This document shows positions 3,853 through 52,617 of a stretch of DNA of 64,000 nt, piece after piece (position 1 is the stretch's first letter; each line of letters opens with the position of its first letter). The notes beneath the pieces were generated by a model. It worked only from the letters and a program-made list of their open reading frames with translations. It ran no database searches and was not told where the DNA came from. The stretch comes from Callorhinchus milii. Lineage: Eukaryota. The DNA is taken from positions 8,186,001-8,250,000 of the forward strand of contig NW_024704742.1 of the NCBI RefSeq assembly GCF_018977255.1, in the 5' to 3' direction. The translations under genes were made by a program, and so were the position numbers.

Positions 3853-3995
3853 CTTCAGATCTCGGTGAGTGATGGGCGGTTTCTGTTTGTGCATGTGCTG
3901 CACTGCACGACAAGACTGATAAAAGATCTTTAGCACGGTATCGCACGCGAGAGATCCTTTTGCTTCAGCTCGCTTCAAAAACTCGACCAATTGTC
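3853..3995 (-). CDS. GAK: GAK coding exon 5 (GQLVEFLKRAEAKGSLACDTVLKIFYQSCRAVQHMHKQKPPITHRDLK); the gene continues beyond the left edge
   Basis: 143 nt inside ORF 3706-4032, bounded by cag| and AAG|gtaagg; contains the HRDLK catalytic loop. Exons 1-5 sum to 519 nt (173 codons) with no stop. Confidence 0.96.
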
Positions 3996-4158
3996 CTGAA
4001 GACAAACGATGGGGAACAAAATTAGTAGCCATTATTCCTTCAGACTAGGTTATGAAACAGATTTTTTTATTTTTTTCAGTCAGGGTAAGGAACAAGTAGA
4101 AGCAAAGATAATTTACAGTTTAACATCCATAAATAGTCACACACGGAAGCAACTGTAC

Positions 4159-11602: not shown

Positions 11603-12072
11603 TTCGTGACCACATCACTCCCACCCTCGCTCGCCTCCACTGGCTCCCCATCCCCCAGAGGATCGAATTCAAGATCCTCATCCTCACCTACAAGGCCATT
11701 CATGGCCTCGCTCCCTCCTACCTCTCTGACCTACTATCCCCCTACCTACCTGCCCGTACCCTCCGTTCCTCTGGCTCCGGTCTGCTCCACATCCCCCGCC
11801 CCAACCGCCCTACCATCGGTGGTCGGGCCTTCAGCCTCTCAGCCCCGAGGCTCTGGAACTCTATCCTCCTTCAAGGCCGGTCTCAAGACCTTTCTCTTTG
11901 ACCGTGCCTTCAGCTCCCCTCTCGACTCTCTACCCCCTCCTCGCTCCCTCCCTTCCTCCCCTCACCCTGACCATTTCCCCTCTGCTCGGGTCCTGACCCA
12001 ACTGTACAGCGCCTTGGGACGTCCTCCCGACGTGAAAGGCGCTCTATAAATGGAATCTTGTTGTTGTTGTTG
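11603..12072 (+). mobile_element. L2-clade LINE 3' end, young-looking
   Basis: LHWLP-region sequence; tail GGGACGTCCTCCCGACGTGAAAGGCGCTCTATAAATG...(TTG)n. Confidence 0.82.
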
Positions 12073-13792: not shown

Positions 13793-14400
13793 ACAGGATT
13801 AGGGAGGGGGAGGAATTCAGGCAGGATGCCCATCCCAAATCACTAACCAGTGACCTCTGCCAGGTGCTTGGACAATCTGTGAGGACAGATTCAGGTTCAA
13901 GCACTCACCTTCAACATTAAGACTCAAGCATGAAATAATGTCCGTGTGGTGATGTACTGGAAGTCATCTGATGGCCATGAAACAGTACTCGAGTAGAAGT
14001 AAAATAATTCCAAAGCATCCATTGTAGAGAATGGGACAGAAAATTGGCAGGGACTAAGTCTTAAAACCAAGACTTTCGCAAGGGAAGACATAAAATTTGT
14101 CATTCAATTTGTGTTGCTTGTGGGACATTGCTATGCACAAGTTGACGGCTTTGTTTGCCCACAAGACTAAGTCGCTGCACTTTATAGTATGTCCTGTGAA
14201 GAGCTTCAGGAATCCTCCTGACGTGAAAGGCACTGTACCAAATGTAAGGGTTATTATAAAATTACTGCGTGTAGAAAAACATTAAGACAATGCTAGAATC
14301 CATAGGAAGGAAAGAAAAAAAAAATCAGTTCAATTTCCAGGATCAGTGCTTTGGATGCTTTCTTTCATCGCTGCCCGTTCTTTAACTTTCTGCATTTTTA

Positions 14401-14717
14401 TAATAAATAATCCTTGCATTTGATATAGCGCTTTTCACGTCGGGAGGACGTCCCAAAGCGCTTCACAGAACACACTGTAAAGTGAATTGACTGTATATTT
14501 GTGGGCGAACGCGGCAGCCAATTGCGCACAGCAATGTCCCACAAACAGTCGTAGATTGAAAATGACCAATTTATTATTGTTTTTGGTTTTGGAGGGATTA
14601 TTATTAGGCTCTGTGTGGAGTAAGGAAACTTGCCCAAGGTTTCGCCCTCTGCCTGGAATTGAACTCAGGTCTCTCACTTGCAAAGTGAGTGCTCTAACCA
14701 CTGAGCTACAGGACTCC
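14401..14717 (-). mobile_element. DeuSINE, young short subfamily
   Basis: Near-identical to the copies at 24583, 29964 and 47373. Confidence 0.9.
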
Positions 14718-16913
14718 ACTTTCCATATTACTTTCCAACATTTCAGCCATTCTACCTTTGGGAAAGTGCAGCCTCCAATCTCATTGTATCAAATTGTTAT
14801 TCCAATTAATGCTGGGAAACAAAGTCATAACATCCAAAATGTATTTTGCCTGAATTTAAAATTATATATCGCCTCACACCATTTTATTGGAAAATAATTC
14901 CAGTTCACTTATGTGCTGCCCTTCCATTGTCAACTCATGTCTGCAAATTATCTTTGTGCTCCTCCTCTGCAAACTCTCAGATGTACTAGGGCTGCTTTAA
15001 AAAATAGTACGATAGTGATCAAGACACACAGTAGAACACATCTACACCACCCATATCTCTCCAGAAGACACTCACTCACTCCGTGGCTATTTGTGGGACA
15101 CTGCTGGGCCAACTGGCTGCCACAAAATACACAGTCAATCCGCTTTACCGTATATTCTCTGAAGCGCTTTGAGACGTCTCGAAGACATGATAAGGCACTA
15201 TATCAAATGCAAAGATTAATATTATTATAATATTATTACCTATTGAGGATGCGCTGTAAAAAAAAGTACAATAAAGTCCTGGATTTGCCCTATTAATTGC
15301 TCTCTCCCATTACAAACACTGGAACACTCCTCGAACCACCAGAACCAAAGAGATTTTGTATTCTCCCTGCTTTCCTCCAACAGAGTACACCATTTGATCT
15401 TATTCATATCTACATTTTCTTGTATACATCCTCATTGAAACAGAAGTGCAAATCAGTTGCCCAAACACGCCTCTCCAGATTCCTTTAAACACTAACCTCG
15501 ACCTCTGGTACACTTATATGTTGCCGCACAATTTGCTTGCATCAGAAAACTAGGCAAAGACTACTTCTAAATACTCTTGTTTATAACCTAAGCTACAATA
15601 GTAACAGTTTATAAATAAATCTTATAAATAAATAAACATCACATTTGATATAGCATCTCTCAGGTCAGGATGATGTCTCAAAGTGCTTCACAGAATATCG
15701 TTCGCAAACACAGTAGCCAATTTGCTCATAGCAATGTCCTATAATTATCCACGAAGTGAATGACCAGGAAAATCTCTCTTCGCTTGTCTTCAAAAGATAG
15801 TTACCGGCTGCAACTGTTAAAATCTGCTCAAACACTAACAATTTACAATCTGTCGTTGTTGCTGATTTTTTAAATACTTTTACCATTGAAACACTATATT
15901 ATGAAAGAAAGTGAATCAGAGGTGCTGTGCTGATCAGAAAGTGTGAAGGTGTTAACTGAACACACTGTTGAAACTAAATCATAGAGTGTCTATTGATACA
16001 GTGAAATTTGGTTATTTGAATACTCAATTTGTTAGCTAAATTATTCAATAAACCAAACCATTCACATAGCCAGACTAAATATAAGAGGCTCACCTCCCAG
16101 AGCTCTAAATTCTATTTAATAAACTGAACTATTCAATTATACAATATTGAATTAAACACAATTCACTGTAATACTTAATTTCCTTTACAGTAATTAGTTA
16201 GGGATCTCCTGCTACAAAGGGTCTACTGATTATATTCATTCTCACAATTTAAAAAATATTCATACAAAAGATAAAGCAGCATGGCAAACACTCAACTTCA
16301 TAATAGAACTACATAAATGAATACAATATTGAGAAGGGCACGTTGTTGACTTTCATACTATTTTAATAAAACTGCGAGATGACATACCTACAAAACACGG
16401 TTTTCTTAATATATAATAGGACATTTACTTCATGCCTGTTTGTGGGGCAATGCTGTGGTCAAATTGGCTTCCTCGTTTGCCTGCAAAATGCAGTCATTAT
16501 ACCTTGTTGTGTATCTTGTGAAGCGCTTTGAGATGCCCTCCGAGATGAAAGGCTGAAATGTCAAATGTAAGGATTATGCTTTCCACACCTTAAAATAATG
16601 GAAAGCAAGTTTCCTTCCATCCAATCAATAATCTATGAATACATGAATTTGGCACTGTCTGGTGTGTCAGCTACAAGTGTATTAATAACCAGTCAACGGG
16701 GGGGGGGGGGGGCGAAGTGTATGATGTACGGTGCTGGATCTGTGGTGTGAGTATTGGGAGGGGGTGGTGGAGGGGGAGTGTGTGCGTTGTAGGCTATTGG
16801 GGGGTGCAGTGAGTGTGGTGTTTGTGTGTGGTATGAGTGTGGAGGGGAGGAGGCTATTGGAGGTGTAGTGTGTATATGGTTTTGAGGGTGCTGTATGTGT
16901 GTGTATATATATA

Positions 16914-18850: not shown

Positions 18851-18854
18851 TCAC

Positions 18855-18993
18855 CCTCGGCGATGACCCTCTTGACTCTCAGTCTGGCCTCTCCCAGCTC
18901 CACAGTCTGTCCCACGAATTCGTTGTGGTCGCGACCGCTCGAGGAGCCCGGAGTCCCCGAGAGGAAGTCAAAGGCCGATTGGAAGATGGACAT
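18855..18993 (-). CDS. GAK: Cyclin-G-associated kinase, coding exon 1 (MSIFQSAFDFLSGTPGSSSGRDHNEFVGQTVELGEARLRVKRVIAE/G)
   Basis: ATG at 18993; 139 nt ending G|GTGAGA. The peptide matches the recalled GAK N-terminus (MSLLQSALDFL...FVGQTVELGELRLRVRRVLAEG) and joins in phase with the 7630-7691 exon. Confidence 0.95.
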
Positions 18994-24440: not shown

Positions 24441-24582
24441 TCATACTCTATCTCTTTGTCTGACTGACTGTGACTTTCAGACTCTCACAAACTCTGTCAG
24501 TGTGACTGACTGAAGGAGAGAGAGTCTGGGCAGAGCGAAAACCAGACTGCAGGGGCTCGAGGAAGGAGTGGACTGAGAGATA

Positions 24583-24895
24583 AAAAAATCCTTGCATTTG
24601 ATATAGCGCTTTTCACGTCGGGAGGACGTCCCAAAGCGCTTCACAGAACACACTGTAAAGTGAATTGACTGTATATTTGTGGGCGAACGCGGCAGCCAAT
24701 TGCGCACAGCAATGTCCCACAAACAGTCGTAGATTGAAAATGACCAATTTATTATTGTTTTTGGTTTTGGAGGGATTATTATTAGGCTCTGTGTGGAGTA
24801 AGGAAACTTGCCCAAGGTTTCGCCCTCTGTCTGGAATTGAACTCAGGTCTCTCACTTGCAAAGCGAGTGCTCTAACCACTGAGCTACAGGACTCC
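24583..24895 (-). mobile_element. DeuSINE, young short subfamily
   Basis: Near-identical to 14401-14717; abuts an L2 fragment. Confidence 0.9.
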
Positions 24896-29085: not shown

Positions 29086-29965
29086 AGCACGGAAACAGCC
29101 CTGGTCAAAGTCACTAACAACAGTCTGTCCACCTGTGACCAGGGCTCTCTCTGCCACCTTGTCCTCCTTGATCTCTCTGTTGCCTTTTACACTGTCAACC
29201 ATTCTATCCTCCACCACCACCTTTCCTCTCAGTTCATCCTTCACTGACCTGCCCTTGCCTGGTTCAAATTCTACCTCTCCCACGATCTCCACTTTGTCTC
29301 CACTAACAGCTGCTCCTCCGGCCCCCAGTCCGTCAAGAGTGGCATCCCTCAGTGCTCTCTCCTTTGGTCCCCACCTTTTCAACATCTACATGCTCCAACT
29401 TGGTGACAAAATCCATAGACATGGGGTCAATGACACCCAACTCTATTCCGGGACCACTGCTGTCCTCACAAACTGTTTGTCGGACATCAAGTCCTGGATG
29501 AGAGCTAACTTTCCCCAGTTGAATGTCAACAAGACCAAGGCCCTCCTGCTTGGCTCCTGTCAGTACATCCACACCTTGGGCGCTGATATCAACACTCTTC
29601 ATGGATGCACACTACCACATGGAACCAATGCAGAACCTCAGTGTCCTGTTCAACCCTCAACTGTTGTTCATTAACCCCATCCATGCCATGAATCACTCCG
29701 TCTTCCCCCCACCTCTGAACATTGCCTGGCTACACCATTGTCTCTCACTGCAGGCCACGAAGACCCTCATCCACACATTCATCACATCCAGGCTTGACTA
29801 CAGAAACTGCCTACTTGTCGGCCTCCCCAACTCCTCCCTCCATAGGGTGCAGATCATCCAGAACTCTGCAGCCCATGTCCTCACCCGCACCAAGCTCCAC
29901 GACCCTATCACCCCCATCCTCGCCTAACTCCACTGGCTTCCCATCACACAGCGGATACAGTTCAA
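29086..29965 (+). mobile_element. L2-clade LINE RT fragment
   Basis: STETALVKV-like start, FGPHLFNIYML, LIHTFITSRLDYRN, RVQIIQNSAA. Confidence 0.85.
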
Positions 29966-30281
29966 TAATAATAATAATCCTTGCATTTGATATAGCGCTT
30001 TGCACGTCGGGAGGACGTCCCAAAGCGCTTCACAGAACACACTGTAAAGTGAATTGACTGTATATTTGTGGGCAAACGCGGCAGCCAATTGCGCACAGCA
30101 ATGTCCCACAAACAGTCGTAGATTGAAAATGACCAATTTATTATTGTTTGTTTTTTTGGAGGGATTATTATTAGGAGTGTGGAGTAAGGAAACTTGCCCA
30201 AGGTTTCGCCCTCTGCCTGGAATTGAACTCAGGTCTCTCGCTTACAAAGCGAGTGCTCTAACCACTGAGCTACAGGACTCC
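29964..30281 (-). mobile_element. DeuSINE, young short subfamily
   Basis: Near-identical to 14401-14717; truncates the L2 fragment to its left. Confidence 0.9.
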
Positions 30282-33069
30282 ATTGTATACTGCAATCAGC
30301 AAATTGTCCCTCAAGGGCAGGCTGTTTTCTAAATAAACCTGTCACATTCTGTACTATCTAACCTGGTATCTGTGAATAGTATTCTCACTAAATCATACAT
30401 AAATACAGTATTATTTTTCATCTGACAGGGAGCCAGTGGAGTTTGGCAAGGACTGGGGTAATCGGGGTTCAGAGTTTAGTGTGGGTGAGAATGCGGGCAT
30501 CGGAGTTTTGGATGAGTTGAATTTTGTGAATAGTGGAGGAGGGGAGACTGACGAGGAGGGCATTTGAGTAGTCCAGCCAAGTGGTGACGAAGGTGTGGAC
30601 AAGGGTTTCGGCAGCTTGTGGAGTGAAGTATTGTCAGAGACGGGCAATGTGGCAGAGGTGAAGGAAAGACCAGATTTGATTTGAAAGGCAACAACAAATT
30701 ACATTTGTATAACACCTTTCACATTAGGAGGAAGTCCCAAAGCACAGGACAGTTAGGGATTTGGACCCAAGCTGGTGGTTGGGATCAGGAGGGGTGGAGG
30801 GCAGGGAGGGTAGGGATAGGAGGGTGACAGAATCACAAGTTAATAAATTACATCATTGTGACTAAAAACCCCAAAAGCCTGATACCCACCTGGTCTTAGC
30901 CATCGGCCTTCATTTTGGTCAGGTGTCTGAGACACGTGCAAATCCACCACCATGCTAAAAGAGTATCCAACCCATATAAGAGTTACAGATATGCCTGCCA
31001 CGCATACGCGGAAATTCCCTTTGTCTTGAATGGAATGCATATTCTCTCCCTGGAGGGACTTAACATAAGTTAAGAGCCAAGACTTGATGATCTCAGATTT
31101 CACCACCACAACAACAACTTGCATTTATATAGCGCACTTCACGTGGAGTAGCATCCTGGAGCACTTGACAGTGTCGGAGTCTGATCCCGAGCCAGGGGGA
31201 CAGGGAGCAGGTAGGTGTCTGTAAGCATGATCAAAGAAGGTCTTTAGTTCAAGATCCTGGTCCTCACCTTCAAAGCCCTCCATGGCCTTGCTCCCTCCTA
31301 CCTCTGTGACCTCCTAACCCCCTACCATTCTGCTCACTCCCTCCACTCAGCGGGTTCTGACCTGTTTCACATCCCCCGTCTTGCCCACCCCACCATTGGT
31401 GGGCAGGTCTTCGGCCACTCTGGTACGCCATCCCATAGCCCCGGGGGCAACGCACCCTCCCTTGCCTCCTTCAAGACCAGGGGAGAAAGACCAGGGGAGC
31501 ATTGTGAGGCTACAGCGCCACAGGTAACTCGCTCGAAGGTTTGCTTACAGCGCCATGTGTGCTGCTATTTAAATCGAGGCGGTTGGGGGGTGGGGGGGAA
31601 GGCAACCTTCTGGTTGACACAGGTCAGATTCCCTAGAGAGGAATATCCTCGGGTCACACAAGCAATGGTTCGTATTTCTGTTCCAGAAACATACCGATAT
31701 TTACACAGCGTCTTTGACATGTTGGAAGGATGTGTTGACCCTGTCGTCTGGGCACCTGAGCTGTGGGTGGGAACTGAGCCGAGGGAATTGGGATGGGGAG
31801 GGAAAAAGATGACCGAGATAGTTAGGTCTTGCCGTGCCTTGAAAGAGGGAGGAAGGGAGTCACAGGGACTCCAGAAATGAGGTCCAGAGAGTGATGGTGG
31901 GGCAGATGGGCGTTTGCTCCTCAAAGGGAACGGCCGGGTTGGGAGATTGCAGAGGTAGGGTAGTGGGTGGGGTGGGGAGTGAACGAAGGGGATAGAGGAG
32001 TTTGTCACTGGAGAAAGAGGGAGTTTCTGTGAGGTAACTCGGTGTCTGTCCTTGTGCGTCCCCTGCGGTGGCTCCAATCATCCACAGAACACTGCCCTCA
32101 ATTCTCCTCACCCTTAATCACTCTCTCCCCCCACCTCACACCCCCCCACACACACACTCTCACTCCTCCTCACATTCTCACACTCTTAATCCCCTCTCAA
32201 TTACTCTTTCTCACTCCGCCTCTCACACATTTTCTCTATTCCCCTCAATCACTCAGTTTCTTTTTCTCCCCCTCTCCCTCATATTCTCTCTCAATCTCAC
32301 CCTCTCCCTCCTCTCACTCTCTCGCACACACGCTCTCGCTCCTCTCAATCCCTCTCTCCCCTTATCAGTTGCGCGGGTCACTATCTGCCGCTGCAGGACT
32401 AAGTTGGTGAGGATGCGTTTGGTGAGAGACGCGCTTGCCTTCCTGACAGACTGCAGTCACGGCCGGTATTATTCACTGTCCGCGCTGGATCCTCCCGACC
32501 GCCGGCTGCTGCCGCTGCCTGGGGAGGACATTCACCGGGGAGGACATTCACCAGGGAGGGAGGTACGGTGGGAGGCAGCGGAAGGTGGAATGTCAGAGAC
32601 GGTCTCGGGCTGGACTGTTGGCCGACTTAAACCATTCAATGAAAATGTGAGTCAGGCTTTTGAAATAATACTCGTCTGAACAATCGACCAAACAGACGTA
32701 CTCAATTGGTACATGTATTTTATATTAAAAGCACAATTCCCACGGTTTTCCATGTATTTAAATTATTATTTTTTATTATAACTCGCAGCCGGTGATGTCT
32801 GAGCTGTAAATGTGCAGCAGTTTAATACCAGCATCAATCATTTGTTTACAAAGTGACTTTCGAACATGAAATCAATGAATATTGAACTGAATGTGTAATA
32901 TTCGAAATCCCCGGTGTTTGACACAAGATACACTCGGCTGCAATATGTGTTGCAGTGATTCACTGTGAATCCGCCCCCCGTAACTGTCTGTGTACATCTG
33001 TGATTCATGTCATACGTAGTTAGATACTCACACATGTATCTCTGATGTAACTGTTACATACACACACAC

Positions 33070-34984: not shown

Positions 34985-36236
34985 AATAACAAAATTACAT
35001 TTGTAAAGCACCTTTCACGTCCAGAGGATGTCCCAAGGCGCTGGACGGACGGAGTTATGGACCCGAACTGAGGGTCGGAGTGGGGAGGAAGGAGGGCAGG
35101 GGTGAAGCAAGGAGATTGAAAGCACGATCGAAGAGGATGGTCTTGAGATGGGTCTTGAAGGTGGCGAGGGAGAGGGCGAGGCAGAGGGACTGCGTGATGG
35201 TGTTCCAGTAGATGGGGGCAAAGTGGCAGAAGGCCTACCTGTCAATAGTGGGCGAGCAAGGCGGGGGACGTGAAGCAGGTCGGTGCCCGCTGAGCAGAAG
35301 GAGTGAGCAGGATGGTAGGGGGTTAGGAGGTCACAGAAATAGGGGGAGCAAGACTGTGGAGGGCTTTAAGGTGAGGATCAGGATCTTGAACCGTATCCTC
35401 TGTGTGATGGGAAGCCAGTGGTTTCAGGTGAGGATGTTGGTGATAAGAGTTGCGGAGCCTCGTGCAGGTGAGGACATGGGCTGCAGACATCTGGATGTTC
35501 TGCAGCCTATAGAGGGAGGAGTTGGGGAGGCCAACAGGCAAGGAGTCTGCATAGTCAAGCCTCGATGTAATGAAAGCATGTATGGGGTTTCAGCGGCCTG
35601 CGTTGTGACAGTGGTGGAGATGGGCGATGTTGCGGAGGTGGGGGAAGGCAGAGTGGGTCATGGCGCAGATGTGGGATAGAAAGGATAATTGATGGTCAAA
35701 CAGGACCCGAAGGATCCAGATTGGCTTAGCAAAGTGGAGTGTGCAACCATGGATTGTGATGCTGTCAGCGCCTGAGGTGAGTTGATGTTCAATTGAAGAA
35801 AGTTAGGTCTCATCCAGGACTTAAGTTTTGACAGACATTCTGTCAGGACAGCAGTGGTCCTGGAGTTAATGGTGGAGGCAGAGAGGTGCAGTTGGGTGTC
35901 ATCCGCATACATGTGGAAGTTGACCCCATGTCTGCGGATGATGTCACCAAGAGGGAGCATATAGGTATTGAAGAGGAGGCGACCAAGGACAGAGCCCTGA
36001 GGAACGCCGCACGAGATGGTCCGGGGGCTGGAGGAGAAGCCATTGGAGGAGATGAAGTGCAGGCGGTGTGAGAGGTACGATCTGAACCAATCAAGGACAG
36101 TGCCGTGGAGGTTGAGGTGAGGGAAGAGGCAGTGGATGAGGATAGAGTGGTCGACGGTGTCAAAAGCCGTAGAGAGGTCAAAGAGGATGAGGAGACAGCG
36201 GGAGCCCTGGTCACTGATGGACAGAATGTCATTTGA
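34985..36236 (-). mobile_element. L2-clade LINE RT to 3' end
   Basis: LILFDLSTAFDTVDH, CGVPQGSVLG, FHMYADDTQL in ORF 35658-36401; LINE tail near 35000. Confidence 0.9.
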
Positions 36237-36956: not shown

Positions 36957-38076
36957 TCAGTGAGTGACGGTGGGTCTGACCACGAAGCGGAGAGCGGAGA
37001 ATCCGGAGTCGCAGCTGAAGTGGGGGCCGAGGGCCGTGAAGGAGGGGACGGCGGCGCGGCCGCCCTGCAGCGGGAGCGCGAGCGCCACCTGACTGCCGCA
37101 CAGGAACAGCACCAGGTTGCGGTAGGCGATGCCGGGGTGGGCGGAGTCAGGGTCGGGGTGGGCGGGGTCAGGGCCGGGGTGGGCGGGGTCAGGGCCGGGG
37201 TGGGCGGGGTCCGGGCTGAGCGTCACCACGGGGTAGCCGCGGGGGGGGCAGGAGGCCTGGCTGTGACGACAGGCCTGGGCGCTCGGGTGATAGGCCGCGG
37301 CCCAGCGCACGCGCACGGAGCTGTAGTAGCGGCTGGGGAAGCGCGCGGTGCTGAAGGTGAGGCCGGGGGAGGCGGGGCGCCGGAAGCTCAGCTGGTGCAC
37401 GTACCGGAAGCCGTCGTAGCGCAGCGCGGGGGCGGGGTCCGGCGGCGCCCCCGGGTCGGCCGGCTCGAGCGGCAGCAGCGCGGTCCAATCGGGGCCCGTG
37501 TAGATGCGCGGCTCCACCCCCAGCCCCGCCCCCAGCCTGGCCACCGGAAGCGAGTGGAAGCGGAAGGCCTGGAGCAGGCGCTGCAGCAGGAAGCTGTCGC
37601 GCTGCAGCTCGGGCCCGCGCTGGCTCTGCAGCGCCACCAGCTGCTCGGGCGAGAACATGGCGAAGCGGAGCCGCCCGAGCAGCTCGTGCCGCAGCCCCGG
37701 CCCCGCCGCCCGGGGCAGGAGCCAGGCCTCCACCGCCCGGTACAGGGACAGCTCGCCGTGCAGCACCAGGTCGGAGCGGAGCAGCAGCGCCGACAGCTGC
37801 CGGGCCTCGAGCCGGAGCCAGGCCGAGGACTGGCTGAAGGCCTGGCAGTTCAGGGCCAGGTACCGCAGGCACAGGCCCCGCAGCTCGGCCTCCTGAGCGG
37901 CCTCGGCGTAGCTGTACAGCTGCAGCTGGAGCGCGAAGCTGCGGTCCTGGGGCAGCAGCTGGTAAAGCAGCTGGTGACAGGCCTCCCGCAGCGCCCGCAC
38001 CCCGTAACTGCTCGCCAGCTCGTGCACACACCGCACCGAGGCCAGAGTGATGTCCATGCTCTTGGTGTAGAAGTAC
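36957..38076 (-). CDS. LGALS3BP: LGALS3BP-like, terminal exon (end of BTB, BACK domain, C-terminal domain; YFYTKSMDITLASVRCVHELASSYG...LRFVVRPTVTH*)
   Basis: 1120 nt inside ORF 36957-38180 after a poly-C tract and ctcag|. Recognisable motifs: YFY..DITL.SV.C.H.LAS.YG, LLPQDRSF, CLRYLALNC, LLLRSDL, PRIYTGPDW, RFVVRP. The five exons total 1806 nt = 601 aa + stop. Confidence 0.92.
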
Positions 38077-39007
38077 CTGAGGGGGGGGGGGGGGACACGG
38101 CTGGTCAGGCTCTCCCTCCCCCCCTCACACTCTCCCTCACACACACTCACTCCCTCACACACACACTCACACACACTCACTCACACACACTCCCTCACAC
38201 ACACTCACTCCCTCACACTCACTCACTCCCTCACACACACTCACTCCCTCACACACACTCACTCCCTCACACACACTCACTCCCTCACACACACTCACTC
38301 CCTCACACACACTCACTCACACACACACACTCACTCACACACACTCACTCACTCCCTCACACACAATCACTCACACACTCACTCACACTCACTCACTCCC
38401 TCACACACTCCCTCACACACTCCCTCTCCCACACACACTCCCTCACACTCTTCCTCCCTCACACACACACACTCCCTCCCTCACACACTTTTCCTCCCTC
38501 ACACACACACACACTCCCTTCCTCTCTCACACACTCTTCCCCCCACACTCTCCATCACTCTCTCTGTCTTGACTCTTTGAGGTGTCTCAAAGACGTGATA
38601 AGGCGCCATATCAAATACAAGGATTATTATTATTATCACACACTCTCCCTCCCTCTCATACAGCTGGTCTGTGCTGAGTTTGCTGATATCAGCTCGGGGT
38701 GCAATAAAGATACTAAAACTTGACATCAAAACCCCAGAATTATGGAAGAAAAGCAACGACTCGTTCCAAAAAAAATAATAAATTCTCACAATTTCCAATG
38801 AAAATGTTTTTTCTCCCGTTTCCAGATTCTGCTTTCTCACTCTCCTTTGTGTCTCACTAACAAAAAAACACATTCCAAACCCAAGCAGAGCTGGGAGAAA
38901 TTAGAATATTATATCTTCAGATCCGGGGGGATGAGTTGCTCTCCTGTTTGGGAGCAGAGTCTGCAGAAATAGTTCCTTTCACCCATTTCACAACAAAGCC
39001 TATAATC

Positions 39008-39140
39008 ACTGTTTGTGGGACACTGTTGTGTGCAATTGACTCCCGTGTTTCGACCACAAAACTTCACAGTATATTCTGTGAAGCGCTTTAAGACGTCTCG
39101 AAGACGTGATAAGGCGCCATATCAAATGCAAGGATTATTA
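39008..39140 (+). mobile_element. 5'-truncated DeuSINE abutting the duplicated LGALS3BP exon start
   Basis: CTGTTTGTGGGACAC core followed by ...GAAGACGTGATAAGGCGCCATATCAAATGCAAGGATTATTA tail. Confidence 0.85.
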
Positions 39141-39192
39141 TACACATGCCACTGAGGTCAGCGTGATGTCTATGATCTTGTTGTGGAAGTAC
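39138..39192 (-). pseudogene. Duplicated, SINE-truncated copy of the start of the LGALS3BP-like terminal exon (YFHNKIIDITLTSVACV*), possibly an alternative last exon
   Basis: ctgcctcag|G TAC TTC CAC AAC AAG ATC ATA GAC ATC ACG CTG ACC TCA GTG GCA TGT GTA TAA aligns to YFYTKSMDITLASVRCV at 38076; the TAA comes from the adjacent SINE tail. Confidence 0.85.
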
Positions 39193-39271
39193 CTGAGGCA
39201 GTTCAGGCTCTGACTCTCTCTCACACTCCCCCTCTCTTACACTCCCCCTGTTCTCTCTCACTCTCTCTGAC

Positions 39272-39536
39272 CTGATGAAGTCCTCTACGAAGGCCAGACA
39301 GTCTGAGGGCACCACCAGTTGGATGCCTGAGGAACGGTTGTGGCTCAGGCTGTTGCCGTCCTGGCTGAGGGCAAGGATCAGGCGATGTGCGCACAGGTGG
39401 AGCCGCACCGGGCCACCCTGCGCCGTCAGCACCAGGATCTTCACCTGACAGTGTTTCTGGCTCAGGTACAACAGCGATAGTGACTGCTGCAGCTCCATGG
39501 GGCGTTCTAGGTGGTACCCCGGGAACTCAGCCTGGT
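39272..39536 (-). CDS. LGALS3BP: LGALS3BP-like, BTB/POZ exon (DQAEFPGYHLERPMELQQSLSLLYLSQKHC...CAHRLILAL...DCLAFVEDFIR)
   Basis: 265 nt, acag| to AG|gtcaga, phase 1 to 2; BTB 'AHRLILAL' motif in the position expected for galectin-3-binding protein. Confidence 0.88.
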
Positions 39537-39989
39537 CTGTGTGAGAGAGAGTGTATGTGAGTGACAGAGAGACAAAGAGTGTGTGAGAGACGAGAGAGAT
39601 TGTGAGACAGAGTGCGAGTGTATGTGGGAGACCGAGAGAGAGAGTCTATGTGAATGACAGAGAGACAAAGAGTGTGAGCGTGAGAGACAGAGACAAAGAG
39701 TGTGTATGAGAGACTAGAGATTGTGAGACAGTGCGAGTGTATGTGGGAGACCGAGAGAGAGAGAGTGTACGTGAGAGACAGAAAGAGAGAATGTGTGAGA
39801 CACCAAAGAGTGTGAAACAGAGAGGGAGTGAGAGTCACACAGAGAGAGCGAGAGACAGGCAGACTGAGAGACAGAAAGACAGAGAGAGTGTGAAAGAGAC
39901 AGAGTGACCCTGGCAACTGCCTGATCTGGTCACAGAGAACGAGAGAAAATGTGATAAAGAGGGAGAGTCACTCACGAGAGAAAGTGAGT

Positions 39990-42127: not shown

Positions 42128-42319
42128 CTGATCCGAAGCGGCCGCCGGTCACAGCCTGTGTGGCGTTGGCGTAGCCGAGAGAGCGACAAACCACATGAGC
42201 GTCTGCCATGTCCCATTCGTCATCACACACGGTGCCCCACTGGCCGCGGTATTGAACCTCCACTCGGCCCTCGCTCTCCAACCCCCCACCCAACAGCCGC
42301 AGGTCACCATCATCTGCAG
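42128..42319 (-). CDS. LGALS3BP: LGALS3BP-like, SRCR domain N-half ([64 protein letters not shown])
   Basis: Translated by hand; 192 nt, cag| to G|gtcagt; canonical SRCR motifs GRVEV, WGTVCDD, VVCRSLG. Confidence 0.93.
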
Positions 42320-43299: not shown

Positions 43300-43354
43300 C
43301 TGTTATGGTGATGGAGAGTGAGATGACGGTCGCAGTGAGGATCAGGCGGATCAT
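43300..43354 (-). CDS. LGALS3BP: LGALS3BP-like, signal-peptide exon (MIRLILTATVISLSITIT)
   Basis: Acceptor ttacag| 5 nt upstream of the ATG; hydrophobic 18-aa leader; G|gtaaca phase-1 donor in frame with the SRCR exon. Confidence 0.8.
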
Positions 43355-46249: not shown

Positions 46250-48030
46250 ATCTTCACCTTTGATTGCTCCTTGTCCCTTTCTATAAGTACTCTAAACCTA
46301 ATGATGTTGTGATCGCTGTTGTCCAGATTCTCTGCTACTGAAACCTACTCCACTTGCCGCATTTCATTCCCCAGATCTAGATCCAGCACTGCTTCCTTCC
46401 TCGTTGGGCTGGAAACATATTGATCCGGAAAGTTATCCTGCACACATTTCAAGAATCCTTTCCCCTCCTTGCCCTTTATACTGTTATTTTGTCAGTCTAT
46501 GTTTGGATAATTGAAATCCCCCATTATCACTACTCTTATTGTTTTTGTACCTTTCTGAAGCCTGCTTGCAGATTTCCTCGTCTATCTCTTTCCCACTATT
46601 TGGTGGTCTATAGTATACGCCTAACAGAGTAACAGAGTCTGCTCCTTAACTCTAACCAAATAGATTCTGTTTTTGGACCCTCTAGCACATCATCCTTTTC
46701 CAGGGCCGTAACCATGTCTTTAATCAATATTGACACCCCTCCCTCCTTTTTTTCCTTCCCTGTCCCTCCTGAATAAATTGATTGTAGCCAGGAATATTCA
46801 GCTCCCATTCCTGCCCTTGTTTGAGCCAGGTCTCCGTTATTGCCACTGCCTCATAACCCCATGTGGCAACTTGAGCCGCAGCTCATCAGTCGTATTTGTT
46901 ACACTCCATGCATTTACGTATATGCACTCCAAGACCAACTGAGTCTGCTCTGCATTTCTCCCCCTTCTTATCCCTCCTTTTTCTGGACTACATTGCTATT
47001 TATCTTTCCCAGCCCTCTAAGTAACATGTTTCTCCTCCCTGATGTTACATCCGGATTCCCTTCCCCCCTCAAAATTAGTTTAAACCTTTCCCCACAGCAC
47101 TAGTTAACTTCGCTGTGAGAACATTGGTCTCAGCCTTGTTCAGGTGTAACCCATCCATCCTGTGCAGGTCCCACCTGCCCAAAACTGGTCTCAATATTCC
47201 AGGAATCTGAAGCCTTCCTTTCTGCACCATTTCTCCAGCTATGCACACATATGTTTGATCCTGCTGTGAGGCATTGGGAGTAATCCAGAGATCACCACCT
47301 TTAAGGTCCTACTCTTTAGCTTTTTCCCTAGCTTCTCCCTGTAGGATCTCAGCTCTTTTTTCTCTACATGGATAATAATAATAATCCTTGCATTTGATAT
47401 AGCACTTTTCACGTCGGGAGGACGTCCCAAAGCGCTTCACAGAACACACTGTAAAGTGAATTGACTGTATATTTGTGGGGGAAAGCGGCGGCCGATTGCG
47501 CACAGCAATGTCCCACAAACAGTCGTAGATTGAAAATGACCAATTTATTATTGTTTTTGTTTTGGAGGGATTATTATTAGGCTCTGTGTGGAGTAAGGAA
47601 ACTTGCCCAAGGTTTCGCCCTCTGCCTGGAATTGAACTCAGATCTCTCACTTGCAAAGAGAGTGCTCTAACCACTGAGCTACAGGACTCCACAACCTGTC
47701 ATGGATCGGACATCATGGCAACATACCATGCGAGAGTCACATCTTTGGTTGCAGAAACGTCTGTCTACTCCATTGTGTCCCCAATGACAATTGCATTGAC
47801 ACTCTTCTCTGTGTCCCCCTGTGCATCCATTTGTTTTTGACTCCTCTCCCCAGAGGTGTCATCACCCTGACTGGTATTCAGTAGAGAACCGGTTTGTGAG
47901 TGCCACACTCTCAGGGGATTTCTGCAGTGCCCGTCCCCTCTTCCAGGTGGTCACACACTCTATTTCCTCATGAACACTCTGTGGCTGTGGGGTGACCGCC
48001 TCCCGAAACATTCGATCCATGAATTCTTCA
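46250..48030 (-). mobile_element. CR1 LINE fragment (ORF1 and endonuclease region) interrupted by a SINE
   Basis: KKEGGVSILIKD...TESIWLELR endonuclease motifs; KVVISGLLP in ORF1. Confidence 0.82.
47373..47690 (-). mobile_element. DeuSINE, young short subfamily, nested in CR1 ORF1
   Basis: Near-identical to 14401-14717; CR1 esterase-like sequence on both sides. Confidence 0.9.
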
Positions 48031-48031
48031 G

Positions 48032-48500
48032 ATTCCTGAATTGGAGCCTTTTGAACACAAACGGGCAGTCACTTGGGAGCAGTGGGATGCAAGGAATGAA
48101 TACAGCTTCCCTTTGAACTGACCAGTCGGAAAATTGCTTCTATAACATGTGGCATCAACTGCTTTACCACCAACCTTGTGCCATTGCATAGCTTCAGTGC
48201 ATCTAGATTCCTCAGCAGCGTGGTTATGCATCCAAGCTTTAGTATGAGTTTGTGTGAAGGCATACTGACCGGATGGTTCTGAAGAGTTTAAAAACGTAGT
48301 TCGGTAGTTGACAGTAGTTTTGATGTCAGGAGCAGTATCTATGGTCTTGTACAGTTTCTTGGCCAGGGATGCCATTGAGTAGCTGGGAATTGATCTCGCT
48401 GCAGACTCATCTTTTGAAGCCGGGATTGCTCGTTCACACAACCACGTATGATTTGTGTAGTTATGGCTGAGATTTGGGAAAACTTTTGTTTTTGAGCTCT
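48032..48500 (-). mobile_element. Helitron RepHel PIF1-type helicase fragment (frameshifted)
   Basis: CERAIPASKD...YKTIDT...VNYRTTFLNSSEPSG, then PSHKLILKLGCITTLLRNLDALKLCNGTRLVVKQLMPHVIEA; LLRNL and LCNGTRL are Helitron helicase signatures. Confidence 0.85.
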
Positions 48501-50275: not shown

Positions 50276-50401
50276 TTAGATGAGGCGGCTGTGTAGCTGC
50301 TGGAGCTGCTCCTGTTGGACGATGATGCGGTGAAGCTGCCCCCGACCATCCTCACACGGCACCGTTACCTTCCCCAAGTACACAGGCAGCTCCGCCCGAG
50401 C
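50276..50401 (-). CDS. DCTN1: DCTN1 last coding exon ([41 protein letters not shown])
   Basis: ttacag| acceptor and TAA at 50278-50276; matches the recalled DCTN1 C-terminus VYMGKVT...QEQLHQLHSRLIS. Confidence 0.94.
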
Positions 50402-50622
50402 CTGTAACACGCACACACTGACATCACAGCCCCCACAGAGACCACCCCCCCACCCCGAGCACAGTCTCCCCCAGCACAGCCCAGACACCCCCAGCACACC
50501 ACAGCACCCCCACAGCACAGCCTCACCCAGCACAGACCCCCACCCACACAACACAGCCACCCCACCCCCAGCACAGCCCCCACCCCGGAAACCCACACAC
50601 TGACCACCTGGCACTGACTGAC

Positions 50623-50712
50623 CTTGGTGTAGGCGGGCGATGGGAAGGTGGCAAAGTCTGAGGGAACGCGAGTGCCCGTCCTCTGGCCGGCCGACACACG
50701 ATCCACTTCATC
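50623..50712 (-). CDS. DCTN1: DCTN1 penultimate exon ([30 protein letters not shown])
   Basis: 90 nt, ttcag| to AAG|gtcagt; carries the VP.DFATFPS motif. Confidence 0.93.
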
Positions 50713-50847
50713 CTGAACACAAGAGTCACTGACCGGTCAGCCTTGGCCACAACACGAGCCACAATCATCATCCTCCCGGCCCTCCACCCCTCCCAATCCC
50801 AACTCGAGTCCAAACCCCTGACTGTCCAGGACCTCGGGACGTCCTGT

Positions 50848-51226
50848 GGAATCCTGTAGCTCAGTGGTTAGAGATACTCGCGTCGCAAACAGGTGGTGTG
50901 GGTTCGATTCCCGGGCAGGGGAAACCTTAGGCAAGTTTCCTTACTCTACACGCCTCTGTTTAACTAGCAGTAGGCAGGAACCCACTTGTTAGTCGACTGG
51001 TGGATCGCTTTTCCAAGGGTAATAATCCCTACAAACTTTTAAAAAATAATAATAAACTGCTCACTTCAATCCAACACTGTTGGTGGGACACTGCTGCGCG
51101 CAATTGGCTGCCGCGTTTCACCCACAAAATATACAGTTAATTCACTTCACAGTACATTCTGTGAAGGGCTTTGAGATGTCTCGAAGATGTGATAAGGCCC
51201 AAATATCAAATGTAAGAATTATTATT
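50848..51226 (+). mobile_element. tRNA-derived DeuSINE-type SINE in a DCTN1 intron
   Basis: A box, B box, core and tail; directly follows an L2 3' fragment (about 50740-50847). Confidence 0.87.
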
Positions 51227-51866
51227 GTAGTTGGTCGTTTGACACTGTGAACTTCTCGTTGGGGAACACAGCTCAGCATGAAACGTGTGAGAGCTTTGCC
51301 ACCATCTTCCTGCCCACAGCTCGGGCCGTGTCCCTTCCCACTGAGGGATGGTCCCACCAGTTGGAGGTGTGGAGTTTAAGCAGCAGCTGCCGGTCTCTCT
51401 GCGGCCAATCGGGGTGGGGTCCCGGCGCTGGGCATGTGGACTGGGATCCAGGTCTCACCTTCAGCAGCTGTCGCCCCAAACCTCAGAGCCTCCTCAGCAG
51501 CTATCTGACAGGAATCTGCCTTCAGTGTGGTGGGAGGACCTTTACAGGACAGTGTGTGACATGCCACCACCTTGATGTTCTCAAGGTCCGAGTCCAATGC
51601 CGTGTACCGGGCTGACTCAGCACTGTCTGCCCCCCGGCTGTTTACTGGCCATTTTGATTTCAAATCCTTCATGGCACCTCCCTGGGTGTATGGAATGTGT
51701 GTGTACAGGGTGTGTGTGTGTGTACAGGATGTTTGCGTGTAATGGATGTGAGTGAGTGTGTGCAGGGGGTGTATGTACAGAGTGGGTGTGTATGCACAGG
51801 GTGTGTGCGTGTGCAGGGTGTGCGTGTTGCGCGCGTACATACAGGCTGTGTGTGCTGAGCTGTTAC

Positions 51867-51964
51867 CTTGATGCGATTGACGGTGTCCCTGAGCTGTTGC
51901 AGTTGTGCTGCCTGCTCCAGGAGCTGAGCTGCCGGTCGCGCCCTCACCTCGGCGGCTCCTCCAG
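51867..51964 (-). CDS. DCTN1: DCTN1 third-last coding exon (AGGAAEVRARPAAQLLEQAAQLQQLRDTVNRIK)
   Basis: 98 nt, acag| to AAG|gtaaca, phase 1 to 0; resembles [23 protein letters not shown]. Confidence 0.9.
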
Positions 51965-52617
51965 CTGTCACACACACACGTCAGTGCCCCCCCCACACAC
52001 ACACACACGTCAGCGCCCCCCCACGCACACACGTCAGTGCCCCCCTCCCACCACGCACACGTCAGTGCCCCCCCCACACACACACGTCAGTGCACCCCCC
52101 ACCACACACACACGTCACTCCCCCCCCACACACATACACACATCAGTCCCCCCCTCCCACACACACACACGTCAGTCCCCCCACCACACACACGTCAATG
52201 GCCCCACACACACACACACACGCCAGTACCCACCCCAACACACATACGTCAGTGCCCACCCCCCCCACACACACGTCAATTCCCCCTGCCCCACCCATGC
52301 ACACGTCAGTGCTTCCCCCCCACACACACACACACACACGCACACACAGTGAGCCCACACACACTGGGCACACACAGACTCAGTGAGCACACACACAGGG
52401 AATGCATACTGGTCACACACACACTGAGCACACGTACACCGTGCGCATATACTGGGCACAAACACACACACACACACAGTGAGCACACACACACATACTG
52501 GTCACACACATACTGACCACACGTACACCATGCGCACATACTGGGCACACACACACACACACACACACAGTGAGCACACACACACACACACAGGACACAC
52601 ACACACTGGACACTGAC

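What the first reader, a model, noticed from the sequence alone, without database searches (positions are those of the whole stretch)
38076..39272. LGALS3BP-like gene has two paralogous starts for its last exon; the proximal one is cut by a SINE that supplies a stop
Seen: 79 nt after the BTB-exon donor (39272), an acceptor at 39192 opens YFHNKIIDITLTSVACV and then TAA from the antisense (ATT)n tail of a SINE. 1.1 kb further on, a second acceptor (38076) opens YFYTKSMDITLASVRCV... and the full exon. Both are in the right phase and both are preceded by AGAGCCTGA...CTCAG. Inference: either alternative last exons giving a full 601-aa protein and a 246-aa secreted SRCR plus near-complete BTB form lacking BACK, or a chimaeric gene made from two tandem paralogues, in which the downstream copy's exon rescued the disrupted one.
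Basis: partly seen in the sequence, partly recalled or inferred. Interest (0 to 1): 0.7.

Follow-up and report, generated by a model that had tools for sequence, protein, structure and literature searches.

The report
Dead duplicate exon start in intron
An elephant-shark gene for a secreted galectin-3-binding protein carries, inside its last intron, an old decayed copy of the first 17 codons of its last exon; it most likely does nothing, and the gene makes its normal full-length protein.

Summary
In this Callorhinchus milii LGALS3BP-like gene, the BTB-exon donor (39272) is followed by a 52-nt copy of the last exon's start (39192), ended by TAA in a SINE tail, and by the full exon (38076); conceptual products 246 and 601 aa. 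The interpretation mostly does not hold. The proximal acceptor has lost its pyrimidine tract and has ten AGs upstream; its peptide changes a tyrosine found in 41 of 41 homologue rows; divergence (11/51 nt, 6/17 aa) fits neutral decay; the stop falls inside a BTB helix; all three database proteins use the distal exon. Trees put both BTB and last exon with the same elasmobranch paralogue (type A), so no A/B chimaera, and no second-gene remnant lies between the copies. Best reading: a lineage-specific tandem duplication across the intron/exon boundary, leaving a dead upstream copy. Not settled: laid contigs showed no splice junction of either kind, and a fusion of two type-A copies cannot be excluded (the last exon is oddly fast-evolving). 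Three look-ups found no earlier scan note of this feature. Ordinary; low interest.

The parts
43300..43354 (-). First coding exon, likely signal peptide (not the 5' exon used by the RefSeq model)
   Evidence: AG and GT boundaries in phase; best 11-residue hydropathy 2.19 against 2.33-3.01 in five elasmobranch N-termini and 0.39 for the RefSeq N-terminus
42128..42319 (-). SRCR exon, first half
   Evidence: Pfam SRCR E 1.2e-31 on P0002
41147..41320 (-). SRCR exon, second half
39272..39536 (-). BTB exon (type A), donor CAG|GTCAGA after 39272
   Evidence: match to human 90K BTB structure 6GFB
39193..39271 (-). 79-nt purine-rich stretch (60 of 79 A/G) ending in the degraded proximal acceptor
   Evidence: longest pyrimidine run 3, ten AG in -45..-3, branch-like CTGAA only 11 nt from the AG
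39141..39192 (-). Proximal relic: decayed copy of the first 17 codons of the last exon; TAA follows at 39140-39138
   Evidence: 11 of 51 nt and 6 of 17 aa differ from the distal copy; profile score 17.6 bits against 38.9
39000..39142 (+). 3' fragment of a SINE with (ATT)n tail, antisense to the gene; its tail abuts the end of the homology and supplies the stop
   Evidence: one of 26 related pieces in the window; 14 of 143 sites differ from a leave-one-out majority of older copies
38640..39000 (.). AT-rich spacer (40% GC) without detectable exon remnants
38575..38640 (+). Second, shorter SINE 3' fragment, same orientation
   Evidence: 6 of 57 sites differ from the first fragment
38132..38561 (.). 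GA/GT-rich imperfect microsatellite
38077..38116 (-). Intact distal branch point (CTGAC, A at -29) and 16-nt pyrimidine run
36957..38076 (-). Functional last exon: end of BTB, BACK domain and C-terminal region, 372 codons
   Evidence: Pfam BACK E 2.1e-11; used by P0001, P0002, P0015; groups with type A

Best explanation
A dead relic of a short internal tandem duplication. In the holocephalan lineage a segment spanning the end of intron 4 and the start of the last exon was duplicated head to tail. Such an event by itself leaves a truncated copy upstream and a complete exon downstream, so no SINE is needed to 'cut' the first copy. Splicing to the upstream acceptor would give a stop inside the BTB domain, so its loss of the pyrimidine tract was tolerated or favoured; the donor at 39272 now pairs with the acceptor at 38076 across one 1,195-nt intron and the gene makes one 601-aa secreted SRCR-BTB-BACK protein. 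The upstream copy decays as intron; SINE pieces and microsatellite accumulated between the copies, one SINE tail landing at (or trimming) the junction. Shown: homology, acceptor decay, residue changes, tree placement, absence of further remnants. Inferred: the duplication mechanism, the order of events, and that the proximal acceptor is unused in vivo.
For: Acceptor: pyrimidine share in -20..-5 is 0.50 (distal 0.94), longest run 3 (16), ten upstream AGs (four), a competing CAG at -17, branch-like motif at -11 (distal -29). Coding decay: H for a Y found in 41 of 41 distinct homologue rows, N, I and A seen in 0 of 41; 5 of the 6 amino-acid differences are derived on the proximal side; profile 17.6 against 38.9 bits. 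Six or fewer changes arise in 24-32% of neutral simulations, pN 0.18 against pS 0.34, Fisher p 0.26; 5 of 11 differences are G>A towards the proximal copy. Shared V at codon 17 (1 of 41 rows; 0 of 24 elasmobranch rows) ties the relic to this gene's own lineage. Stop falls in predicted helix 239-251 and removes helix 255-271 of P0002; the last exon's first 36 residues match 6GFB residues 90-125. No remnant of the rest of the last exon, the BTB exon or the SRCR exons in 39141-38130 (8 of 8 comparisons within shuffle range). P0001, P0002 and P0015 all read into the distal exon. BTB and last exon are congruent in trees.
Against: No spliced read or contig was seen for either junction, so disuse is inferred, not shown. 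The gene's own third-exon acceptor also has a poor tract (longest run 2, share 0.56), so weak motifs can work here. The frame has stayed free of stops for 17 codons (stops arise in only 34% of simulations, so this says little) and pN/pS of about 0.5 is also compatible with mild constraint; 17 codons have little power; 5 versus 1 derived changes is p 0.22; 5 of 41 real homologue rows score at or below the proximal peptide. The homology ends exactly at the SINE tail, which a pure local duplication does not predict. The last exon is much more diverged from elasmobranch type A (42-47%) than the BTB exon is (62-71%, one row 50%), while among elasmobranchs the last exon is the more conserved (78-81% against 67-76%): unexplained, and what a different history of the two parts could give.
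Confidence: 0.6

Rival explanations
1. Chimaeric gene from two lineage-specific type-A copies: the whole gene was tandemly duplicated, and a deletion (perhaps at the SINE insertion) joined exons 1-4 of the upstream copy to the last exon of the downstream copy. The proximal piece is still a dead relic; only the history differs.
For: The family duplicates in tandem-like fashion: two near-identical type-A proteins in Scyliorhinus torazame on one contig length, and A and B on one contig length in Mobula and Amblyraja. Rate and composition differ between parts: end branch 0.38 for BTB, 1.09 for the last exon; GC3 0.67-0.80 upstream, 0.95 in the last exon. The relic keeps the ancestral I at codon 7 where the distal copy has M. 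The SINE piece (9.8% from majority) may be younger than the split of the copies (21.6%; Fisher p 0.049, but 0.14 if only about 9 changes are put on the proximal branch).
Against: No trace of a second BTB or SRCR exon, or of the rest of the first last exon, between the copies or elsewhere in the window; needs two events where one suffices; trees cannot show it and are congruent.
Confidence: 0.17
2. The proximal AG is used at some level but yields no working protein: either a cryptic, decayed minor isoform, or a recursive (ratchet) point, because splicing to 39192 re-forms CAG|GTACTT, a donor that could be re-spliced to 38076 and give the same mRNA.
For: The re-formed 9-mer matches the CAG|GTAAGT consensus (recalled) at 7 of 9 places, as the real donor does. 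The duplicated AG|GT geometry is that of the tandem-duplication route to new introns (PMC4974935, passages); re-formed donors in RS-exons are described (PMC10156609, passages).
Against: The site fails the Y5-N0-4-YAGGT motif used in PMC10156609 (longest run 3); that paper reports conventional lariats preferred in introns under 1,000 nt, and this one is 1,195 nt; the same 9-mer is simply inherited from the exon and is present at the distal copy too.
Confidence: 0.13
3. Functional alternative last exons: a 246-aa secreted SRCR plus partial BTB form beside the 601-aa protein.
For: Acceptor AG, phase and 17 open codons are kept; homologous alternative C-termini by 3' exon duplication are a known class (PMC8373072, passages).
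Against: Degraded acceptor; invariant Y lost; BTB cut mid-helix, while the solved human BTB is an intertwined dimer traced over the whole domain (PMC6026745, passages); no AATAAA or ATTAAA between 39141 and 38076 (weak, since the first ones after the distal stop are over 4 kb away); no relative of 30-280 aa found (6 candidates, none significant).
Confidence: 0.06
4. Chimaera of the ancient paralogues: type-A upstream exons with a type-B last exon.
For: Strict diagnostic sites in the last exon split 9 A, 6 B, 18 neither (p 0.61); AU tests of Cmil-with-B are borderline (p 0.057, 0.049); the C. milii branch is long and compositionally odd.
Against: Three trees, two models, put the last exon with A at 99-100/99; A-specific blocks such as YVHQ-SF, HEL and DSF are present; several B-like states are shared with the axolotl row, so ancestral.
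Confidence: 0.02
5. Assembly artefact.
For: Repeat-rich region; no laid contig covered the relic exon itself.
Against: Copies differ by 22%; four runs of 2025 hold 0.80-0.90 of the stretch's words (one study); a contig of another study matches 39205-39400 exactly.
Confidence: 0.02

Closest known systems
LGALS3BP / 90K / Mac-2-binding protein family; RefSeq XP_042193976.1 (C. milii) and elasmobranch 'galectin-3-binding protein-like' proteins
   Same: SRCR, BTB, BACK order; this very gene is annotated, with the distal exon.
   Different: The annotation does not show the intronic relic in any protein found; RefSeq uses another 5' exon and a low-complexity extra piece.
Internal tandem duplication across an intron-exon boundary (Gao and Lynch 2009 and Rogers model as cited in PMC4974935; potato RdRp case)
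   Same: A segment with the 3' end of an intron and the 5' end of the next exon is duplicated; the downstream copy inherits branch point, tract and AG.
   Different: In potato the upstream exon piece stays exonic and a new intron is born; here the upstream acceptor decayed and the piece became part of one longer intron.
Tandem exon duplication-derived C-terminal substitutions (PMC8373072)
   Same: Homologous starts of a 3' coding exon downstream of one donor.
   Different: Those are annotated, mostly ancient, conserved and expressed, with alternative poly(A) use; here one copy is 17 codons, decayed, and without expression evidence.
CmiSINEs (SINE2-1_CM, SINE2B-1_CM) and SacSINE1-CM of C. milii (PMC5499810)
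   Same: Abundant SINE with a 3' end shared with a LINE; full-length copies in the window have a tRNA-like head by eye.
   Different: Only about 140 nt of the 3' end are present; the paper says the families share about 160 nt there, so the family cannot be named.

Membership tests
LGALS3BP family (full-length product) | SRCR domain | tested here: met
   Pfam PF00530 E 1.2e-31; 1BY2 match E 8e-40
LGALS3BP family (full-length product) | BTB domain | tested here: met
   6GFB match E 4.9e-20; Pfam BTB 18.5 bits, just under its 20.5 cut-off
LGALS3BP family (full-length product) | BACK domain | tested here: met
   PF07707 E 2.1e-11
LGALS3BP family (full-length product) | Signal peptide | tested here: inconclusive
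   Hydrophobic first exon; no signal-peptide predictor run
Alternative last exons from tandem duplication | Two homologous exon starts after one donor | tested here: met
Alternative last exons from tandem duplication | Both acceptors with branch point and pyrimidine tract | tested here: not met
   motif-level only
Alternative last exons from tandem duplication | Both junctions in RNA | tested here: inconclusive
   no joint of either kind in X5, X6
Alternative last exons from tandem duplication | Purifying selection on both copies | tested here: inconclusive
   fits neutral decay, invariant Y lost, but 17 codons give little power
Alternative last exons from tandem duplication | Own poly(A) site for the upstream exon | tested here: inconclusive
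   no canonical hexamer in 39141-38076, but none close to the distal stop either
Alternative last exons from tandem duplication | Conserved in other species | not testable with these tools
   no eukaryote genomes held; X13 gave only low-complexity matches; no short protein form found
Recursive splice site | YAG|GT | tested here: met
   CAG|GTACTT
Recursive splice site | At least five pyrimidines within 4 nt of the YAG | tested here: not met
   longest run 3; criterion from PMC10156609
Recursive splice site | Intermediate junction or lariat reads | not testable with these tools
   only assembled contigs were offered
Chimaeric gene from paralogues A and B | Upstream and last exons group with different paralogues | tested here: not met
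   both with A; AU borderline
Chimaeric gene from two type-A copies | Remnants of a second gene copy | tested here: not met
   a clean deletion would leave none, so this does not exclude it
CmiSINE / SacSINE1-CM | 3' tail shared with a LINE | tested here: met
   related copies align to LINE 3' ends at 12002-12055 and 34995-35042; the L2 name is from PMC5499810
CmiSINE / SacSINE1-CM | Family-specific head and body (CORE or Deu) | not testable with these tools
   fragment lacks them; no repeat library held

The most novel reading that the evidence does not exclude
The duplicated AG|GT works as a ratchet point born by tandem duplication: the 79-nt piece is removed first, the re-formed donor CAG|GTACTT is then spliced to 38076, and when re-splicing fails a SINE-terminated 246-aa SRCR plus partial-BTB form (or a decayed transcript) tunes output of the full protein. 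It would be a natural case of a recursive site arising from a duplicated exon start in a short vertebrate intron.
Probability: 0.06. Interest if true: 0.5.

Novelty: new member of a known kind. Interest (0 to 1): 0.12.

Why it matters
If the best reading is right it matters little: it is a clear example of how a duplication across an intron-exon boundary is absorbed into an intron, and a warning for gene prediction at this locus. It would matter if the proximal site were used, as a SINE-terminated secreted isoform of an innate-immunity-linked protein family or as a newly born recursive site. The more interesting lead is a side result: elasmobranchs keep two linked LGALS3BP-like paralogues whose SRCR exons and last-exon starts look homogenised within species while the BTB exons stay about 40% identical.

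Tried and rejected
Junction test: one lay of 39128-39562 on runs X5, X6 (RNA guessed), X1 and X13 (4 of 24 listed) gave no joints; the only exact long pieces were unspliced (X5 39205-39400, depth 2.3; X6 39312-39562, depth 3.7); no run covered 39128-39202 and DNA-like run X1 did not cover the BTB exon either, so holes prove nothing; most laid records were low-complexity matches to the GA-rich intron. The stretch did not include the distal exon, so the distal joint could only have appeared as a loose end; 28 loose ends and 1268 pieces were not shown. No RNA holder on record was listed. X13 gave nothing homologous. No whole genome was held, so other C. milii paralogues and other species' loci could not be read. 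Similarity between the 5' part of the 79-nt intron and 38570-38500 looked significant against shuffles but other GA-rich tracts score higher (59 against 63-69): rejected as a boundary marker. The two SINE pieces as duplicates of each other: 6 of 57 differences, like unrelated copies: not supported. The AlphaFold model is poor overall (mean pLDDT 50; 63-81 over residues 211-280) and was used only for helix limits. Literature searches (listings only) showed no paper on this gene in cartilaginous fishes; the library lacks most subscription papers, and no supplements were read. Scan look-ups returned one unrelated note on a neighbouring gene and nothing on this feature.

Full report
What the window is. 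The last exon's translation finds two proteins at E <= 0.001 among 8000 candidates, one named Callorhinchus milii; the cluster of the other holds RefSeq XP_042193976.1, 'galectin-3-binding protein [Callorhinchus milii]', which maps to the window at 96.7-100% for four of its pieces. The gene lies on the minus strand with coding exons at 43354-43300, 42319-42128, 41320-41147, 39536-39272 and 38076-36957. Pfam gives SRCR and BACK above cut-off and BTB just under; the BTB matches the solved human 90K BTB, 6GFB. No whole genome was held.

The observation. All coordinates, phases, peptides and lengths (246, 601 aa) check out. The duplicate is real: 57 nt at 82.5%, E 7e-9, score 74 against at most 32 elsewhere. 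In the 51 coding nucleotides 11 differ, changing 6 of 17 residues. The homology stops exactly where the reverse-complemented (ATT)n tail of a SINE 3' fragment begins, and that tail gives the TAA. Between the copies lie this fragment (39000-39142), 360 nt of AT-rich DNA, a second SINE tail (38575-38640) and a 430-nt microsatellite. An assembly slip is unlikely: four runs of one 2025 study hold 0.80-0.90 of the words of 36957-39540, and a contig from another study matches 39205-39400 exactly.

Is the proximal acceptor alive? By motif, no. Against the distal copy it lacks about 18 nt that include the poly-C tract. Pyrimidine share in -20..-5 is 0.50 against 0.94, longest run 3 against 16, upstream AGs 10 against 4, and its branch-like motif sits at -11 against -29. 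Of the gene's three other acceptors two score 0.75 and one only 0.56 with a longest run of 2, so a weak tract is not proof. The coding piece looks unselected: of 64 homologues tried, 60 covered all 17 columns (41 distinct rows); Y at codon 3 is in 41 of 41, and the proximal H, N, I and A are each in 0 of 41; profile scores are 38.9 bits distal and 17.6 proximal, with 5 of 41 real rows at or below the proximal score. Six or fewer residue changes from 11 random substitutions occur in 24-32% of simulations; pN 0.18, pS 0.34, p 0.26. This fits decay but has little power. The product would stop in the middle of a helix (239-251 in P0002 numbering) and lack the next (255-271) in an AlphaFold model that is moderate only in this region; the first 36 residues of the last exon align to 6GFB 90-125, and the solved domain is an intertwined dimer traced over residues 129-250 (PMC6026745, passages read). 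No canonical poly(A) hexamer lies between the copies, a weak point because the nearest after the real stop are over 4 kb away. The three C. milii-type database proteins use the distal exon, and a search of 30-280-aa proteins with the BTB region found none (6 candidates).

Reads. The decisive count could not be made. Only assembled contigs were offered, none on record as RNA. Laying 4 of the 24 runs on 39128-39562 gave no joints; the two exact long pieces were unspliced and at depth 2-4; holes occurred even in the DNA-like run. This is no evidence either way.

Is it a chimaera? Elasmobranchs have two paralogue types, here called A (13 rows) and B (3 rows), on one contig length in Mobula and in Amblyraja. 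The C. milii BTB exon groups with A at 100/99 (27 rows; one A row left out) and so does the last exon after its first 80 residues (28 rows, 100/99), also under a mixture model with 15 and 14 rows (100/99 and 99/99). Against this: the branch is long and compositionally odd, AU tests of a B placement give p 0.057 and 0.049, and strict diagnostic sites split 9 A, 6 B, 18 neither; A-specific blocks are nevertheless visible. No remnant of other exons lies between the copies (8 of 8 comparisons within shuffle range) or elsewhere in the window by tblastn. The V at codon 17, shared by both copies and absent from 24 of 24 elasmobranch rows, points to a duplication within the holocephalan line. A fusion of two recent type-A copies would look the same in these tests. 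It gains some weight from an unexplained asymmetry: the last exon is only 42-47% identical to type A while the BTB exon is 62-71% (one row 50%), the reverse of the pattern among elasmobranchs (78-81% and 67-76%), and its GC3 is 0.95 against 0.67-0.80. GC-biased change in a long GC-rich exon is an equally possible cause (inference).

Order of events. The SINE piece is 9.8% (14/143) from a leave-one-out majority of the older copies in the window; the exon copies differ by 21.6%. The difference is borderline (p 0.049; 0.14 if about 9 changes are proximal), so the SINE is as old as or younger than the duplication. PMC5499810 (part 2 of 6 read) describes CmiSINEs and SacSINE1-CM sharing about 160 nt at the 3' end with an L2 tail, so the family of this fragment cannot be named; that paper's two clocks differ several-fold, so I give no date.

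How it most likely works. A head-to-tail duplication of a segment crossing the intron-exon boundary leaves by geometry a short copy upstream and a whole exon downstream (inference; the class is described in PMC4974935, passages). The upstream acceptor decayed, the intron grew to 1,195 nt, and the gene makes one protein (0.60). Rivals: fusion of two type-A copies with the same dead relic (0.17); low-level cryptic or recursive use, since splicing to 39192 re-forms CAG|GTACTT (0.13; the site fails the motif of PMC10156609, passages); functional alternative last exons as in PMC8373072 (passages) (0.06); A/B chimaera (0.02); artefact (0.02). Together the readings in which no second working protein is made hold over 0.9.

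Novelty. The gene is annotated; the relic appears in none of the listings, nor in the scan's notes, but the kind of thing is well known. The donor consensus and the branch-point rule of thumb are recalled, not from a call. Verdict: real, ordinary, interest 0.12.

Noticed in passing
Proteins P0017/P0010 (Heptranchias), P0009/P0028 (Mobula), P0008/P0029 (Amblyraja): Within each species paralogues A and B are 100, 88 and 98% identical over the SRCR domain and 88, 70 and 98% over the first 80 residues of the last exon, but 40-42% over the BTB exon and 28-50% over the rest; A orthologues between these species are 78-82% over SRCR. Looks like repeated gene conversion sparing the BTB exon; gene-model errors not excluded; no paper seen's listing.
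   Followed up: partly
window 36957-38076: The last exon is far more diverged from elasmobranch orthologues than the BTB exon, has GC3 0.95, and carries a 21-nt tandem repeat of 4.1 copies (37131-37216) that adds a Pro/His-rich insert absent from type A.
   Followed up: partly
window 48124-48375 and 39780-39840 (-): RefSeq XP_042193976.1 starts with an 84-residue non-hydrophobic 5' exon and includes a low-complexity piece from the intron before the BTB exon, and misses the likely signal-peptide exon at 43300-43354; probably model errors.
   Followed up: partly
all protein searches: No type-B protein labelled C. milii turned up and none lies in the window; B may be lost or unannotated in this species. 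Most hits were not looked up by name.
   Followed up: no
P0004 and P0020: Two Scyliorhinus torazame type-A proteins of 594 aa differing at about two residues, on one contig length: recent duplicate or assembly haplotype.
   Followed up: no
window 18853-18993 (-) and 3856-4044 (-); 50279-52000 (-): Downstream neighbour is a cyclin-G-associated kinase gene (match to 4C57, E 3e-10; kinase hit). Upstream exons resemble the C-terminus of dynactin p150 (recalled; Pfam found nothing). These are not the neighbours of the mammalian gene as I recall them.
   Followed up: partly
window 39533-39536: Tandem acceptors at the start of the BTB exon: 39536 and 39533 are both in frame (601 or 600 aa).
   Followed up: no
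window 14400-14719, 24580-24895, 29965-30282, 47375-47692: Four full-length young SINE copies (95-97% to the copy at 47375) among 26 related pieces.
   Followed up: no
window 38655-38700 (+): The start of the AT-rich spacer recalls a fragment of an older shark SINE (from memory only; no other copy in the window).
   Followed up: no
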